A DNA stretch of 64,000 nucleotides, taken from the NCBI GenBank assembly GCA_965262115.1, contig OZ253496.1, positions 640,001-704,000 on the forward strand, written 5' to 3'. Made by a program: the position numbers. The first letter of the stretch is position 1, and the number at the start of each line of letters is the position of its first letter. The DNA is from Nitrospinales bacterium. Lineage in GTDB: Bacteria > Nitrospinota > Nitrospinia > Nitrospinales > VA-1. Shown in pieces: positions 15,001 to 21,000 of this stretch.

Positions 15001-18000
15001 TTAACAATATGACCCACCCCTACACGCAAAGACTTTTCAGTTCCATTCCCAAACTTGAGAAAAGCGATACTTTGCTGGACACCATTCCCGGCCTGGTTCC
15101 TTCCGCCAACGAATATGGAGAAGGATGCAGGTTTGCTGGCCGCTGTTCCGAAGTCATGGACATTTGCCATGAACGGGAAAGCAAAGTGCATCACATCACC
15201 AGCAACCATAAAACAGTTTGTCACTTAATGGAAAAAGGAGTGGGCAGCGCCCGCAAGCAAAGCAGAACAACTGATCCTGTACCGGTTCGCAAACTTGAGA
15301 ACACGCCGCTTATCAAGATACGGAATTTAAAAACCCATTTTCCTGTGCGCAAGGGAGTGTTTCTGCGCGTCGTCGACCATATCCGGGCCGTGGACGATAT
15401 TAGTCTGGATATTCCCAAAGGCGCAACCGTGGCTCTGGTCGGAGAATCCGGTTGCGGAAAAACAACCCTGGGTGAATCCATTCTGCAATTGGTTCCCGAC
15501 GCACGTGGAGAAGTCTTCTTCGACAATCAAAATATCATGAACCTGAAAGGCGAAGCCTTGAAACAATTTCGCAAACATATGCAGATTGTGTTCCAGGACC
15601 CTTTCGGTTCCCTGCAACCTCGCATGACCATCGAAAGAATTGTAGGGGAAGGACTAGAGGTTCACCAGCCCTTGCTTTCACCGGATGAACGATCTCAAAA
15701 AATTGCCCGGGTTTTAAAGGAAGTGGGATTGAGTTCATCCATCCTGGAACGCTACCCGCATGAGTTTTCCGGCGGCCAGCGGCAACGCATCGCTATTGCC
15801 CGCGCTTTAATTCTGGAACCGGAGTTTCTGGTGCTGGATGAACCCACAAGCGCTTTGGATGTATCGGTGCAGGCCCAGGTTCTCAACCTGCTTAAAGAAT
15901 TACAATCACGACATACACTTACCTATCTGTTCATCAGCCATAATTTAAGCGTCGTGCGCTATATGGCAGACACGGTAGCCATCATGTATCTGGGAAGAAT
16001 TGTGGAGCAGGCGCCTGTGGAAGAACTCTTCAAGAACCCGCGTCACCCATACACAAAATCGCTTCTTGAGTCGGTGCCCGATCTGGAAACCCGCAAACCA
16101 TTCAAGCCCTTGGTGGGAGATGTGCCCTCCCCTCTCAATCCGCCGTCAGGTTGCCATTTTCATCCCCGGTGCCCCATTTATCTGAATGAGGAACAGGGTT
16201 CTGCATTGGCAAAAAACTGCACCAGCCAATATCCTGAAAAGATGGGGGAAAACCACTCGTTCGTTTCCTGCCACCATGCCGCGCCCTCCGCAAAAATCCG
16301 GGAATAAAAACCTGTAAGAATTTCTCCTGCAACTTTTTGCCATGCAAGGCGAGATTCTTCGTCACGTTGTTCCTCAGAATGACAAATCGGCGCTTCTTGT
16401 CATTCTGAGCGATTGCATTGTCATTCTGAACGCAGTGAAGAATCTTGTCTTTCCCCTTTTTTGACTTGCGCAAAGGTCCCCCTGACAAGGAGACCTTTGC
16501 ATAACCCGAGACCCTCATTGATCCTCCCCTCTCATGAGGGGAGGTCTGGAGGGGTGTGGATTATTTTACGGAATTCATAATCCAACCCTCCCCTGGCCCC
16601 TCCCTATGAAGGGAGGGGAGATTTCTGCTTCCGCTTTCAACTTACACAAAGCTTGATCTTCCCCTGTTTTAGTGGACAGTTAGTTAAGAGGCATAGGCCT
16701 GTTTCTCGAATTCGGCAGGGCTGAGATAGCCGAGATATGAGTGACGGCGCTGCCGATTATAAAACACTTCGATATATTCAAAAATATCCTTCTTTGCTTG
16801 CTGACGGGTTTTGTAGTTCCGGTTATGAATGAGTTCCACTTTGAGAGTATGGAAAAAACTCTCCGCCACGGCGTTATCCCAGCAATCGCCCTTCCGGCTC
16901 ATACTGCACTCTATCCCATGAACATTGAGCAAGGCTTGAAAATCGTTGCAGGCATATTGAACCCCCCGGTCAGAATGGTGAATCAATCCCGGTTTCATGC
17001 CGCCGTTCTTCATTGCCATATTTAAAGCTCTCATTACCAACCAATGGGTTATCCAACGATCCATGGCCCAACCAATAACTTTACGGTGGAATAAATCCAG
17101 CGTCACCGCAAGGTATAACCAGCCCTCTTGAGTCGGGATATAGGTGATATCCGAAACCCAGCATTGACCGGGCTCAGCAACATTAAACCGCCGTTGCAGT
17201 TTGTTTTTTGCCACCGGGTGATTATGTTTGGAATCGGTTGTCACCCTGAACTTTCTTTTGTGCTTGGCAACGATTCCATGCTCGCGCATAAGACGGGCAA
17301 TACGATGCCTGCCAATGGCATATCCCTTGTCTTTCAAGTCCTCATGAATTCTGGGACTGCCATAAGTCTGGCGACTCTTCTTATAAACGGTTTTGATCTC
17401 ATCAACCCATCGCTGCTTCTCACGGCTCCTCAGGCTCTCGGGGCGGCTCAGCCAGGCATAGAACCCACTTCGTCCCACTTCCAGAACCCGGCACATCGGG
17501 CTTACCGGAAATGCTTCTCGATGATCCCGTATAAACCGATATCTCATTGGGAACCCTTCGAGTACCCCTTGTATGTTGTTCATAAGGGGAATTTGTAGTA
17601 GTTGTACCTGTGAGCCCTGTGGGAAGCCGGTTTTGTGTTTTCCACAAGGCTCACAGGGTTTGATTCAGGGCACAATAGATCGTTTACCCCTTGGGCTTTT
17701 AAGCCCGTCCCGAAGCGCAGATCGTTGTGTCCTATTTTGATTAACCCGAACAGTTGCCTGGGCCACTGAGCCCGCATCGGCAAGGCTGGGAGACCAAATT
17801 ATGAATCAGAAACCCCATTTTATTGGCATCGATATTTCTAAACTCCATCTGGATGTTGCTGACAGCATGACTCAAGAAACCTGGCAAACCGCTAACAATG
17901 AGGAAGGAATTGCTGGTTTGGTCGAGAGTTTATCCGCCTTAAATCCTCCATTGATCGTTTTGGAAGCCACAGGCGGCTTAGAGATCCCGTTGGCTTCGGC

Positions 18001-21000
18001 CCTGGTTGCGGGTCGACTGCCAGTAGCCGTGGTCAACCCACGGCAAGTTCGTGATTTTGCCAAAGCCACCGGGAAACTGGCAAAAACCGATGTCATTGAT
18101 TCTCTTGTGCTGGCCCATTTTGCCAGGGCCGTACGTCCTGAGGTCAGGAAAATCAAAGACGAAGAATCTCTGGAACTCTCAGCTCTAGTGACACGCCGTC
18201 GCCAGTTGATCGAGATGCTGACCAAAGAAAAAACCCGTCTAAAACAAGCTCCAAAATGGATATGTAAAGACATTAAGGAGCATATCGAATCTCTTAAAAA
18301 ACGCTTGCGAAAAATCGATGGCGACCTTTCCAGAACCATCAAAAACAGTTCTGCCTGGCGTGAGCACGACCAGATCATACAAAGTGTTCCCGGTGCCGGT
18401 CCCGTTCTGGCTGTCAACCTCTTGGCCGGGGTTCCGGAACTTGGAGTTCTTAATCAGAAGCAAATCGCCGCCCTCATCGGTCTCGCTCCCCTCAATCGGG
18501 ACAGCGGAAAGTTCCGGGGCCGCCGGTGTATCTGGGGCGGCCGCGCCAATGTGCGTGCCGCTTTATACATGGCCGCCGTCACTGCCATGCAGCATAATCC
18601 CGTGATTCGTACCTTTTACACACGCCTCATCGAAAAGGGCAAACCCTTTAAAGTTGCCATTACCGCATGCATGAGAAAGTTATTAACGATCATCAATACC
18701 ATGATCAAAACAAAAACACTCTGGAATGAAAATCTCATTGCCAGCACTTGACATTTAACACAGTTGCTTCGGGGCATGAAAGCCAATGAAGAGGACATCA
18801 CAAAGATAACTGTCGCCTTTTTTAATATGTCCCGCTCCATACGAAGGCGAGCGTTTTCTCGCCGCAACTGCTGCAACTCATCTCCCGGCTTAAGCTGTCC
18901 TTTGCCGGGAAACGCATTCCCCTGATCCTCCTCATACTCCTGTTTCCAGCGACCCAGAAGGGCAGAACGGATTCCCAGATCCCGGGACACCCGGGCAATG
19001 CTATCGCCTACTTCAATAACCAATCGAACCGCTTCTAACTTGAATTCTTTACTGAAACTCCTGCGTTTGGTTCCCATAAAAACACCTCCAAAAGTGTATT
19101 ATCCACACTTTTCGATGTGTCCACCAATTCAGGGGAAGATCAGCTCTCCCTGACAAGGGGGATTGAGGGGGTTTGCTTAGGTTGTCATTGCGAACGTAGT
19201 GAAGCAATCCAGAATCTGGATCGCCACGCTCCTTTCAGTCGCTCGCGATGACGGGAGTGGGAGCTGCTAAACCATTTTCCTGACTTCGAAAATTGGTAAG
19301 TGGTAATTGTCATTCTGAACGCAGTGAAGAATCCCCAAGCCTATGCAAGGCTTATATTAAACTTCTTTTCCGCTCCCGGTAGTAACTACCGACCGGCCCT
19401 GTTGCTCTCTCCATCTGAATTTGCCAACCACAATCCTCAAAACCTCGTGAAGCAGCCTCAGCTCCTTGTAGGACAAAACTCTTAACAGACTAATCAGCTT
19501 GGCAATTTCCCTTTCAAAGGCTGGGTGTTTTACAGGAGCCTCTTCAAAATCAAAAAATGTTCCAAGAGAAACATTTAATTTTTCCGCAAGAAATTCAAGG
19601 GTTCTCAACGAGGGAATGCTCACGCCGCGTTCCAGGCTGGAAACCGTTTCCACGCTCACATTGATCTTCTCGGCTACCTGAAACTGGGTCAATCTGCGCG
19701 AAAGGCGGATTTCGGTAATTCTTGCGCCAATCCTCTTCTCAATATCAGACATGATTTATCACCTCTGTAGAAAGAATAGACAAATCAATGTCCGCTGGCG
19801 TCGAGGGGTAAAATCGGCGTAAAAGTTCTGGAGGGCATGAGTAGGACTTGAGTAGCTGTAATTTTAAGTCATAAGAGGAGGAAAAAATGAAGAATGTTAT
19901 ATCTGCTGCGGTTTGTGCCTTGTTGCTGTTCCCGTCGCTCGGTTTCGCAGGGAGTAAAGACAATTTTACTTATATCAGTTTCTCAGGAATGGTTTTCGTG
20001 GCGGAAGATTCCACCCTGGAGGCTAAAAATTTCATGATTGCAGGAGGAACAGAAGCAGAATTAGATGTCGGCCTGGGTTTTTCCGTGGCGGTGGGCAAGA
20101 AGGCAGGCAACGGCTGGCGGGGAGAACTCGAATACTCCTACAGGAAAAGTGATACTGGCGATTTAACACTGGGGGCTGTGAACGTTCCCACCCTTGGCGG
20201 AGAAGCTGATATCCATATTATTATGGCTAATGGCGTTTACGACATTACAAACAACAGCCTGTTCACACCGTATCTTGGTGCGGACGTTGGGTGGGAAGAA
20301 GAAGCTGAGGGTGCAGAGTTTGCTTATCAACTTTTGGCCGGAATAAACTATGAGGTCGCTCCTAAAGCCGATTTGATTCTTGGTTATCGTTACACGGGGA
20401 TGACCGATCTGAATTATGAGGCAGCTGGCTTAAAATATACCGCCACGGTGGATACCCACAACTTTGAACTCGGATTCAGGCATTCGTTTTAAAGACAGGC
20501 CAAACGGGTGATGATAGAACCATTCTGGTAATCTATTTTCTGGTACTTTCTCCTCCAGGCCGTTCGCTTTGTTTTTTTCTAATCTCCTTTTTTCCACTCC
20601 AGGGAGAGTAGACTTTTAATTCTGGAGAGTTAAGGCGTGCCCTTCAAAGAATTTTTTTTCAACCTTGATGATTGGGATGGGATAAACGAAATTTTTCTTA
20701 AAAAATTGCCGTTATCAATTAAAAATCTTGCCGCCCATTTCCATGCCGGTCCGTGGTACGTTATATGGTGGACACGGTAGCCATTATGTATCCGGGAAAA
20801 ATTGCAGGACAGGTTCCCGGTCGATGCTCTCTTCAAGAAAAGGGGTCAAGGTCTTCTTGACTACAAGAGGGTAAAAGAAGTGCGGCAATCCAACCCTCCC
20901 CCAGCCCCTCCCTATGAAGGGAGGGGAGGCCGATGTTTTAAAATCTTTTCAAAAACTCCATCCAGGTTTTCATAAACATCCTGATTGGTAAATCGCAGAA

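What a model noticed while it worked through the whole genome (the two positions that open the first line are those of the whole stretch)
16654..19143. An IS110 bridge-RNA element with a readable guide: 22 copies at one 17-nt palindromic site, half of them inside a reside [...]
A 1,199-bp IS110-family element occurs in at least 22 near-identical copies, every one at the site TACCCCTT^CGGGGCATG; eleven copies sit inside copies of one IS3 element, cutting it between orfA and orfB, and the element's 5' non-coding RNA folds into a stem-loop whose internal loop spells both halves of that site. I read it as an active bridge-RNA-guided recombinase whose target-binding loop can be read straight from the genome, and which disables a second mobile element as a side effect of homing to a small CCCC-TT-CGGGG palindrome that the IS3 happens to carry. 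New: a natural, internally validated guide/target pair (22 used and 20 still empty perfect sites in one chromosome) for an unchar [...]
Evidence so far: blastn of C1:655501-660000 against the genome: 7 intact IS3 copies (1,290 bp), 11 IS3 copies interrupted at one position by the IS110 element (e.g. 656654-659143, 1462089-1464567, 1633858-1636336, 1774195-1776685, 1894891-1897389, 1933516-1935994; some partly deleted), 11 IS110 copies elsewhere, 98-99.8% identical. Flanks of the 11 non-IS3 copies and of the IS3 site: all read (t/g)(A/t)CCCCTT|GTATG...CAGTTGCTT|CGGGGCA(t/g/c)G, CTT on both sides. Fold of the 230-nt 5' non-coding part C1:657571-657800: -85.6 kcal/mol, z -3.84, 0 of 200 shuffles as stable; the internal loop of the second stem-loop holds UACCCCUU (nt 115-122, left half of the target) and CCCGAAG (nt 139-145, reverse complement o [...]
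(Added by a program. Inside this text positions count along the whole contig: contig position 640,001 is position 1 of the stretch shown here. "Call 12" and the like, gene names such as g00115 and contig names such as C1 are that model's own, and its searches are not shown. The text may have been shortened before it was handed on; [...] marks where a part breaks off. The agent that wrote the report below was given it as the finding of a first reader that could run no searches.)

Follow-up and report, generated by a model that had tools for sequence, protein, structure and literature searches.

The report
Bridge-RNA IS110 element nested in IS3
A small jumping gene that uses its own RNA as an address label has landed 22 times on one variant of a 41-letter repeat in this Nitrospina-type genome, a copy of which sits inside a second jumping gene; this is a clear new example of a mechanism described in 2024, not a new mechanism.

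Summary
A 1,199-bp IS110-group element (window 17571-18769) lies inside an IS3 element (16654-19143).

I decoded the whole left-end RNA against the published IS621 bridge RNA.
- The target loop reads TTTACCC-CT-TCGGG.
- The donor loop reads ACAGTTG-CT-TGTAT, with the same interrupted right donor guide as IS621.
- The core is CT, not CTT.
- A TTGACA-17-TATGTT promoter forms only at a right-end/left-end joint.
- The stems covary in 23 relatives, and guides match flanks far above shuffled controls.

The site is the hairpin of a 41-nt dispersed repeat (about 215 copies) whose loop base varies. The main family sits only at the T variant. The two decayed copies carry a compensating guide change and sit at a G variant.

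IS3 holds the site because one 41-nt unit is inserted in its frameshift window. That insert already puts orfB out of the canonical -1 frame. Seven of the eleven IS3-linked copies carry a 10-bp deletion that breaks the recombinase, so they probably spread passively.

Verdict: new member of a known kind. No expression or circle data.

The parts
16654..19143 (-). IS3-family element (orfA, A6G slippery site, orfB with DDE integrase core), interrupted by the IS110 element
   Evidence: Inverted ends TGATCTTCCCCTG.../...CAGGGGAAGATCA. Pfam HTH_Tnp_1 on orfA; rve, HTH_21, rve_2 and rve_3 on orfB. There are 7 uninterrupted copies elsewhere.
17563..17570 (+). Left 8 nt of the split 41-nt dispersed-repeat unit (TACCCCTT). 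The left target is 17561-17567 and the CT core is 17568-17569.
   Evidence: The unit was defined. It is absent from IS3 relatives.
17571..18769 (+). IS110-group insertion sequence, 1,199 bp. With a CT core the moved segment can equally be written 17570-18768.
   Evidence: 21 full-length copies plus 1 truncated copy at 98.3-100%. Junctions.
17572..17577 (+). -10 half (TATGTT) of a promoter that is complete only at a right-end/left-end joint
   Evidence: The spacer to the TTGACA in the right end is 17 nt across a CT-core joint. The same layout appears in 14 of 15 elements examined, this one included.
17606..17657 (+). 5' stem-loop of the bridge RNA (left-end nt 36-87)
   Evidence: Fold. Two alleles exist among the copies. 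Shorter relatives lack it.
17668..17733 (+). Target-binding stem-loop. Left target guide 17683-17691 (UUUACCCCU), linker 17692, inner hairpin 17693-17706, linker GU 17707-17708, right target guide 17709-17715 (CCCGAAG), handshake positions 17716-17717.
   Evidence: Layout taken from the IS621 structure paper.
17745..17790 (+). Donor-binding stem-loop. Left donor guide 17750-17757 (ACAGUUGC), inner hairpin 17760-17773, right donor guide 17776-17784 (AU-CG-GCAAG, interrupted), handshake positions 17785-17786. Its 3' strand overlaps the ribosome-binding site.
   Evidence: Compared with IS621 residue by residue.
17801..18751 (+). Recombinase gene, 316 aa. DEDD residues D11, E55, D97, D100 and serine S235.
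   Evidence: Pfam PF01548 (1.5e-25) and PF02371 (1.9e-20). PDB matches ISCro4 2.4e-33 and IS621 1.5e-30. Motif positions.
18748..18753 (+). -35 half (TTGACA) of the joint promoter. It overlaps the stop codon at 18749-18751.
18760..18768 (+). Left donor ACAGTTG plus the CT core at the right end
   Evidence: It is identical to the left donor guide at 17750-17757 over 8 nt.
18770..18802 (+). Right 33 nt of the split 41-nt repeat unit. The right target TCGGG is 18769-18773.
55240..56530 (-). Uninterrupted IS3 copy in the same window, with an empty perfect site at 56149-56165

Best explanation
Window 17571-18769 is an insertion sequence of the IS110 group that chooses its insertion site with a bridge RNA encoded in its own left end.

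Inferred cycle, by analogy with IS621:
1. The element leaves as a circle.
2. Joining the right end to the left end places TTGACA 17 nt upstream of TATGTT.
3. That promoter starts an RNA of about 210 nt near left-end nt 14.
4. The RNA has a 5' hairpin, a target-binding stem-loop and a donor-binding stem-loop.

Target loop. UUUACCCCU has the sequence of the top strand of the left half-site, so it pairs with the bottom strand. CCCGAAG pairs with the top strand CTTCGGG. The 14-nt target is therefore TTTACCC-CT-TCGGG.

Donor loop. ACAGUUGC matches the right end. AU(CG)GCAAG pairs, with two bases looped out and one G.T pair, with CTTGTAT at the joint. The donor is therefore ACAGTTG-CT-TGTAT.

The DEDD/serine recombinase exchanges strands at the CT core.

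The target is the hairpin of a 41-nt dispersed repeat whose loop base varies. The guide fits the T variant. One such unit lies inside the resident IS3 element, which is why IS3 is hit.

Shown here: the anatomy, the guide-to-flank and guide-to-end matches, stem covariation, a compensated guide variant, site specificity within the genome, and absence of one copy in a related genome. Inferred: transcription, circle formation, catalysis and present activity.
For: Protein. Both IS110 domains are present. The sequence matches the solved bridge recombinases ISCro4 and IS621. The DEDD and Ser motifs are at D11, E55, D97, D100 and S235.

RNA.
- A 23-sequence alignment of left ends from relatives with 48-73% protein identity supports four helices. 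93.1% of cells are paired, against 34-46% when partners are slid. 14 of 26 pairs have changes on both sides. 0 of 500 shuffles reach any measure.
- The guide columns are hypervariable and the donor guides are conserved.

Guides.
- Across distinct guide pairs of relatives, the left guide matches the left flank at 4.06 of 7 positions, against 2.28 shuffled (n=32).
- The right guide matches the right flank at 4.38 of 5, against 1.55 shuffled (n=24).
- 0 of 2000 shuffles reach either value.

Layout. It agrees with the IS621 structure paper (passages read): 9-nt left target guide, G-U linker before the right guide, 8-nt left donor guide, and a 9-on-7 interrupted right donor guide with a G.T pair at donor position 12. 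The handshake base pairs with position 7 of the other DNA: C at 17716 with donor G7, and G at 17785 with target C7.

Compensation. The two 87-88% copies have the right guide changed from CCCGAAG to CCCGCAG. Their right junction reads GCT-G-CGGGG instead of GCT-T-CGGGG.

Specificity. Empty ACCCCTNCGGGGC sites number A 43, G 39, C 32 and T 29. All 22 main-family copies are at T (Fisher 1e-13; 8e-9 if only 13 events are counted).

Promoter halves are conserved in 14 of 15 elements.

Mobility. 15 of 24 copies keep the 316-aa frame. A 50.9-kb contig of a related organism (run X7) joins the flanks of the copy at genome 120373-121570 without the element. The same run holds its own 1,200-nt element contig with 44 differences.
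Against: - No RNA run holds the stretch and all runs are assembled contigs, so there is no transcript, start site or circle-joint evidence.
- Positions 1-3 of the left guide often do not match. The IS3 site reads AGTACCC against UUUACCC, and two sites have an extra C.
- In a congeneric genome (G016) the one assembled RNA reads C at target position 10, but five right junctions read G, C, T, T, T.
- A 5'-truncated remnant in G013 has a right guide for CCAGG but sits at TCGGG.
- The two compensated copies share their right flank for at least 120 nt, so they count as one event.
- Seven copies have a broken recombinase.
- SNPs are mosaic, and few IS3 copies keep matching 3-bp flanks. Recombination between copies has therefore moved many flanks, and copy counts overstate the number of insertion events.
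Confidence: 0.9

Rival explanations
1. Most IS3-linked copies did not arise by guided insertion. One or two insertions into IS3 were then multiplied passively. Routes would be movement of the IS3::IS110 composite by IS3 transposase supplied in trans, segmental duplication, or recombination and gene conversion between copies. The '22 used sites' would then be far fewer independent tests of the guide.
For: - 7 of the 11 IS3-linked copies share the same 10-bp deletion at about codon 238, leaving a 264-aa frame. None of the 11 copies outside IS3 has it.
- Composites lie at different outer flanks, but some flanks are shared between copies.
- Several copies have an IS3 arm on one side only.
- The SNP matrix is mosaic.
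Against: - The bridge RNA and both ends of the deleted copies are intact. Recombinase from the 15 intact copies could therefore still move them in trans into IS3 sites.
- Only 1 of the 6 full composites (the one in the window, GCT/GCT) shows a matching 3-bp flank of the kind IS3 transposition would leave.
- This rival does not touch the 11 copies outside IS3, whose left flanks all differ.
Confidence: 0.55
2. The element is a recent fossil. Its copies are young, but it no longer moves in this strain. The empty sites would remain empty because activity has stopped, not because of chance or regulation.
For: - No circle joint or transcript could be looked for.
- 29 T-variant sites are still empty.
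- 9 of 24 copies are broken.
Against: - 15 copies keep the full frame with all catalytic motifs.
- Both promoter halves and all four guides are identical in all 15 intact copies.
- A related genome lacks the copy at genome 120373-121570.
Confidence: 0.15
3. The recombinase finds the site through the shape of the GC-rich hairpin (CCCC-TTC-GGGG) or through protein-DNA contacts. On this view the RNA words that match the site are a by-product.
For: - The target is a hairpin.
- A 2026 preprint on ISPpu10 (abstract read) reports that a target stem-loop adds specificity beyond base pairing.
- Junctions in G016 tolerate loop-base changes.
Against: - 114 hairpins that differ only in the loop base are unoccupied by the main family.
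- The guide change in the decayed copies tracks the loop base.
- Relatives with unrelated, non-palindromic targets show the same guide-to-flank matching.
Confidence: 0.05

Closest known systems
IS621 of Escherichia coli, the bridge-RNA model system (Durrant et al. 2024, PMC11208160; Hiraizumi et al. 2024, PMC11208158; passages read)
   Same: - DEDD plus Ser recombinase.
- RNA in the left end, ordered 5' hairpin, target loop, donor loop.
- CT core and a joint promoter.
- 9-nt left target guide and 8-nt left donor guide.
- Interrupted right donor guide with two looped-out bases and a G.T pair at donor position 12.
- Donor positions 8-14 read CTTGTAT in both (for IS621 from the residues named).
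- Handshake base pairing with position 7.
   Different: - The protein is only distantly related (phmmer 1.5e-30).
- The right target guide is 7 nt here against 4 nt in IS621.
- The 5' hairpin is 52 nt.
- The target sequence and the host phylum differ.
- No experiment exists for this element.
ISPpu10 and ISPpu9 of Pseudomonas putida (preprint 10.64898/2026.03.19.712850, abstract read; PMC12288879, abstract in listings)
   Same: IS110-family elements that sit in many copies in one repeated palindromic intergenic sequence. A hairpin forms part of the target.
   Different: - Here both arms of the hairpin are themselves the guide-matched half-sites.
- The repeat is a 41-nt unit, and no RAYT-type transposase was found in the genome.
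- One unit lies inside another insertion sequence.
[quoted passage not shown]
   Same: An IS110-family element that homes into another mobile element.
   Different: - Those elements target terminal inverted repeats.
- IS4321 and IS5075 belong to the IS1111 group, whose RNA lies in the right end.
- Here the target is a host repeat unit nested in the frameshift window of an IS3.
ISCro4 transposase (PDB 9t56)
   Same: Best solved-structure sequence match, 2.4e-33 over residues 1-304.
   Different: I know nothing more about it from my calls.
Rfam RF02234 sX15 (Xanthomonas sRNA)
   Same: It is the only Rfam family with a hit over the two guide stem-loops: 17654-17810, E 0.0017, 35.4 bits.
   Different: The hit is on the opposite strand and below the gathering score of 55. 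The source paper describes sX15 and asX7 as complementary plasmid RNAs with 10 homologues in a Stenotrophomonas chromosome (passages read). That fits a multicopy IS110-type left end annotated on both strands; this reading is my inference.

Membership tests
IS110 family, IS110 group (bridge-RNA elements) | Recombinase with an N-terminal DEDD (RuvC-like) domain and a C-terminal Tnp domain carrying a catalytic serine | tested here: met
   PF01548 1.5e-25 and PF02371 1.9e-20. D11, E55, D97, D100 and S235 located. Matches IS621 and ISCro4 chains.
IS110 family, IS110 group (bridge-RNA elements) | No terminal inverted repeats. A short core (CT) is shared by donor joint and target, and no other duplication is made. 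| tested here: met
   Junctions of 22 copies. The variant copies show the shared part is CT, not CTT. Empty sites read LT-CT-RT.
IS110 family, IS110 group (bridge-RNA elements) | Long non-coding left end that folds into two stem-loops, each with an internal loop, conserved by covariation | tested here: met
   230-nt left end against an 18-nt right end after the stop codon. 26 pairs, 93.1% paired, 14 compensated, 0 of 500 shuffles.
IS110 family, IS110 group (bridge-RNA elements) | First internal loop matches the two halves of the insertion site: left guide identical to the top strand, right guide complementary to it, both including the core | tested here: met
   UUUACCCCU and CCCGAAG against TTTACCC-CT-TCGGG. 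One compensated variant. Relatives score above shuffles.
IS110 family, IS110 group (bridge-RNA elements) | Second internal loop matches the element's own right and left ends, with an interrupted right donor guide | tested here: met
   ACAGUUGC equals right-end 18760-18767. AU(CG)GCAAG pairs with CTTGTAT. The pattern is as described for IS621. Donor guides are conserved in 23 relatives.
IS110 family, IS110 group (bridge-RNA elements) | [quoted passage not shown] | tested here: met
   TTGACA, 17 nt, TATGTT by sequence. The -35 is kept in 14 of 15 elements. This is sequence only, with no transcript data.
IS110 family, IS110 group (bridge-RNA elements) | Circular intermediate and RNA-dependent recombination | not testable with these tools
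   Only assembled contigs were available and no RNA holder was listed.
IS3 family (the host element) | orfA with HTH, A6G slippery site, orfB with DDE integrase core | tested here: met
IS3 family (the host element) | orfB in the -1 frame, so that a -1 slip at the slippery site gives the OrfAB transposase | tested here: not met
   In the uninterrupted copy orfB is in the +1 frame, and the -1 frame stops after 25 codons. Removing the 41-nt unit restores the -1 fusion. Relatives have 36 nt where this IS3 has 77.
REP elements mobilised by RAYT transposases | A Y1 (HUH) RAYT transposase gene in the genome | tested here: not met
   PF01797 gave no match in the genome (93.9% complete). The control genomes gave matches.

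The most novel reading that the evidence does not exclude
Within one bacterial genus, IS110 lineages have split up the loop variants of a single host repeat family by one-base changes in the right target guide. 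A reads the T variant, C reads the G variant, and G (in two congeneric genomes) would read the C variant. That would be guide reprogramming seen in nature. In the same genome a three-level nest (IS110 inside a 41-nt repeat inside IS3) has left IS3 dependent on an unusual +1 shift at the CCCC run, which is also the IS110 target. Insertion, and the shared CGTGG change in three IS3 copies, would then bear directly on whether IS3 can still make its transposase.
Probability: 0.2. Interest if true: 0.6.

Novelty: new member of a known kind. Interest (0 to 1): 0.35.

Why it matters
It gives a complete natural bridge-RNA example from a phylum far from the model systems, with every guide, the core, the handshake bases and the joint promoter readable. 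One chromosome supplies 22 occupied and 29 empty cognate sites, plus 114 near-cognate sites that differ by one loop base. That is a ready-made specificity table for anyone testing how strictly position 10 of the target is read.

It also shows how three kinds of repeat can nest. A host repeat carried inside one insertion sequence makes that sequence a target for another. It does not change what is known about the mechanism.

Tried and rejected
- Rfam has no family that reaches threshold here. The only hit is sX15 on the wrong strand, below the cut-off.
- I looked for expression or circle joints. No RNA holder is listed, and all 24 runs are kept as contigs. The laid contigs break at the element in the near-identical runs.
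- I tried to tell composite transposition from guided insertion by 3-bp flank duplications of IS3. Flanks are too reshuffled: only the window's copy shows GCT/GCT.
- I tried to build a history from SNPs. The matrix is mosaic, so I made no tree.
- I first read G137-U138 as pairing with target positions 15-16, and U122 as a tenth guide base. The alignment shows that GU is a conserved linker. The base after the left guide does not track the target in L004 or L001. I dropped both readings, although U122 does change to G in the compensated copies.
- My first right-flank script was off by one base and gave poor matches. It was corrected.
- The left-end detection by the last TGTAT misfires in some loci (L048, L049, L052, L061, L062; also L092), and the pattern misparses L012 and L042. 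Those rows were kept in the statistics.
- A search of papers for IS110 with Nitrospina found one unrelated paper. A search for nested IS110/IS3 with bridge RNA listed nothing on this arrangement among the 10 of 41 papers shown.
- A RAYT gene was sought and not found.

Full report
**What is there.** Window 16654-19143 is an IS3-family element on the minus strand. It has an orfA with an HTH domain and an orfB with an integrase core. It is cut at 17570/17571 and 18769/18770 by a 1,199-bp element on the plus strand. That element carries a 316-aa gene (17801-18751) with both IS110 domains, PF01548 and PF02371.

blastn against the complete 2.68-Mb chromosome finds:
- 21 full-length copies at 98.3-100%;
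- one copy lacking its first 112 nt;
- two full-length copies at 87.6 and 87.9%;
- five fragments.

A Pfam scan of the genome finds 24 DEDD domains, all at these places, so no other IS110-type element is present. Every copy is flanked by ...ACCCCTT on the left and CGGGGCA.G on the right. Twenty perfect empty 17-mers remain, where 0.0002 are expected.

**Decoding the RNA.** I read the parts of the two 2024 papers that describe the IS621 bridge RNA. I aligned the left ends of 22 relatives with this one; their proteins are 48-73% identical, and the closest come from uncultured Nitrospina.

Four helices are supported. 93.1% of cells are paired, against 34-46% when partners are slid. 14 of 26 pairs change on both sides. 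0 of 500 shuffles do as well.

Counting from 17571 as nt 1, the RNA has these parts (coordinates checked):

| Part | Position (nt) | Sequence or note |
|---|---|---|
| 5' hairpin | 36-87 | |
| Target stem-loop | 98-163 | |
| Left target guide | 113-121 | UUUACCCCU |
| GU linker | 137-138 | conserved |
| Right target guide | 139-145 | CCCGAAG |
| Donor stem-loop | 175-220 | |
| Left donor guide | 180-187 | ACAGUUGC |
| Right donor guide | 206-214 | AU(CG)GCAAG |

The right donor guide pairs with CTTGTAT. Two bases loop out and there is a G.T pair at donor position 12. The structure paper describes the same arrangement for IS621 (A157-U158, U159-U160 flipped out, G161.dT12, C162-G165).

The base just 3' of each right guide pairs with position 7 of the other DNA: C146 with donor G7, and G215 with target C7. 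In relatives this base is U where target position 7 is A. That is the published 'handshake' pattern.

The target is therefore TTTACCC-CT-TCGGG and the donor is ACAGTTG-CT-TGTAT.

**Checks on the guide reading.** Across relatives with unrelated targets, the left guide matches the left flank at 4.06 of 7 non-core positions, against 2.28 in shuffles (32 distinct guide pairs). The right guide matches the right flank at 4.38 of 5, against 1.55 (24 pairs). 0 of 2000 shuffles are as high. Rows where my end-finding misfired were kept.

Inside this genome, the two 87-88% copies have CCCGCAG instead of CCCGAAG. Their right junction reads GCT-G-CGGGG instead of GCT-T-CGGGG, while the left junction is unchanged. 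This shows two things. The exchanged core is CT, not CTT. And the base after the core is read by the right guide. Those two copies share their right flank, so they are one event. Both are decayed, with a 172-aa frame.

**The joint promoter.** TTGACA (18748-18753, over the stop codon) lies 17 nt from TATGTT (17572-17577) once the right end is joined to the left end at the core. The same -35 at the same distance is present in 14 of 15 elements examined. Both papers describe this for IS621. No transcript data exist for this organism in the runs I could reach.

**What the site is.** The 17-mer is the start of a 41-nt dispersed repeat, TACCCCT-N-CGGGGCA.GAAG...ATATCAC. A profile search finds 215 hits, 138 of them near full length, sometimes in 41-nt tandem. 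The stem is CCCC/GGGG and the loop base N varies.

Empty ACCCCTNCGGGGC sites number A 43, G 39, C 32 and T 29. All 22 main-family copies are at T. Fisher's test gives 1e-13, or 8e-9 if only 13 events are allowed.

No RAYT-type gene is present. I therefore call the repeat REP-like without filing it under REP/RAYT. That fits the relatives I found, but I did not compare the two families.

**Why IS3 is hit.** The closest IS3 relative (82% in OrfB, from an uncultured Nitrospina) and three more distant ones have 36 nt between the A6G slippery site and the conserved start of orfB. This IS3 has 77 nt. The alignment shows one clean 41-nt insert, and that insert is a unit of the dispersed repeat. The nest therefore has three levels: IS110 in a repeat unit in IS3.

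Because 41 is not a multiple of three, orfB now lies in the +1 frame. A -1 slip at A6G meets a stop after 25 codons. Taking the unit out restores a canonical -1 fusion. All IS3 copies carry the unit, so this IS3 multiplied after acquiring it. How it makes transposase is open. So 'IS110 disables IS3' holds in the sense that orfA and orfB are separated by 1.2 kb. But IS3 was not canonical before that.

**How many events.** Fifteen copies keep the 316-aa frame. Seven share a 10-bp deletion at about codon 238, just after S235, leaving 264 aa. All seven are linked to IS3. The SNP matrix is mosaic. Several copies have an IS3 arm on one side only. Few IS3 copies keep matching flanks. Recombination between copies has been frequent, and much of the IS3-linked count is probably passive spread. 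The 11 copies outside IS3 have 11 different left flanks, and they are the safer evidence.

**Mobility.** A 50.9-kb contig from a run of a related organism (about 95% identical over the flanks) joins positions 464 and 1822 of locus L090, with 85 other letters between. That organism therefore lacks the copy at genome 120373-121570. It has a 1,200-nt element contig of its own with 44 differences. The left end is found in 3 of 22 other genomes of the genus, and in 9 of 60 relatives searched.

**Results that cut against a strict reading.**
- In G016 the single assembled RNA would read C at position 10, but five right junctions read G, C, T, T, T, and the left flanks match at 5-7 of 9.
- A truncated remnant in G013 has a guide for CCAGG but sits at TCGGG.
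- G019's remnant has the G allele, but its right junction is missing.
- In this genome the IS3 site mismatches the guide at positions 1-2, and two sites have an extra C.

Position 10 is thus discriminated perfectly in this genome, but apparently not in every relative. Collapsed assemblies may hide several RNA alleles.

**Comparison and verdict.** Every sequence-level defining feature of an IS110-group bridge element is met. Activity could not be tested. Elements of this family that home to REP-type palindromes are described (IS621, ISPpu9, ISPpu10). So are ones that home into other mobile elements (IS1383 in IS1384; IS4321 and IS5075 in Tn21 ends; titles seen). This is a new member of a known kind. 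What it adds is a fully readable guide set, a one-genome specificity table, one natural compensated guide variant, and the three-level nest.

Noticed in passing
window 56101-56241 (uninterrupted IS3) and 17480-17570 / 18770-18802: A 41-nt unit of the dispersed repeat is inserted in IS3 between the A6G slippery site and orfB, moving orfB from the -1 to the +1 frame. A +1 slip on the CCC-C run of the hairpin (ATG CCC CGA) would reach the orfB frame. This is speculation.
   Followed up: partly
genome G000:C1 about 411488, 603919, 1658397 (outside the window): Three of the 7 uninterrupted IS3 copies share one change in the site (CGGGG to CGTGG, target position 12). It would mismatch the right guide. 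It is synonymous in the orfA frame (CCC to CCA) and removes the CCCC run. It is one mutational event, not three.
   Followed up: partly
window 17548-17583, minus strand: The inserted left end supplies an ATG (reverse complement of GTATGTTGTTCAT) in frame with orfB. The composite therefore has a 299-aa stand-alone OrfB frame starting 13 nt inside the IS110 element.
   Followed up: no
genome G000:C1:2144620-2145981: Left-end nt 1-162 is followed directly by a complete copy. The joint reads ...GTGTC-CT-TGTATG, as if the donor joint had recombined at a CT inside another copy's left end. A 2026 preprint title on 'half-match recombination' (listing only) may be relevant.
   Followed up: no
genome G000:C1:2518286-2519435: A scrambled cluster: a right-end fragment, an IS3 left arm, then left-end nt 1-87 and an inverted left-end nt 1-55.
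   Followed up: no
window 17654-17810, minus strand: Rfam sX15 matches the reverse strand of the two guide stem-loops (E 0.0017, below threshold). Its source paper reports sX15 and a complementary RNA, asX7, with 10 copies in a Stenotrophomonas genome. The family may be an IS110 left end annotated on both strands.
   Followed up: partly
window 17786-17803: The 3' strand of the donor stem-loop (CUGGGAG) overlaps the likely ribosome-binding site 8-10 nt before the ATG. Folding of the RNA and translation of the recombinase could therefore compete.
   Followed up: no
window 17606-17657 and other copies: The 5' hairpin has two alleles among the copies (…CACAAGGCTCACAGGG against …CACAA-GCTCCCAGGA). 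The second weakens the stem without a compensating change.
   Followed up: no
window 16400-16650 and 19150-19340: The IS3 composite lies among other short repeats, for example GTCATTCTGAACGCAGTGAAGAATC on both sides and CCCCTC...GAGGGG hairpins. The left flank ACTTACACAAAGCT recurs next to the uninterrupted IS3 at 55240.
   Followed up: no
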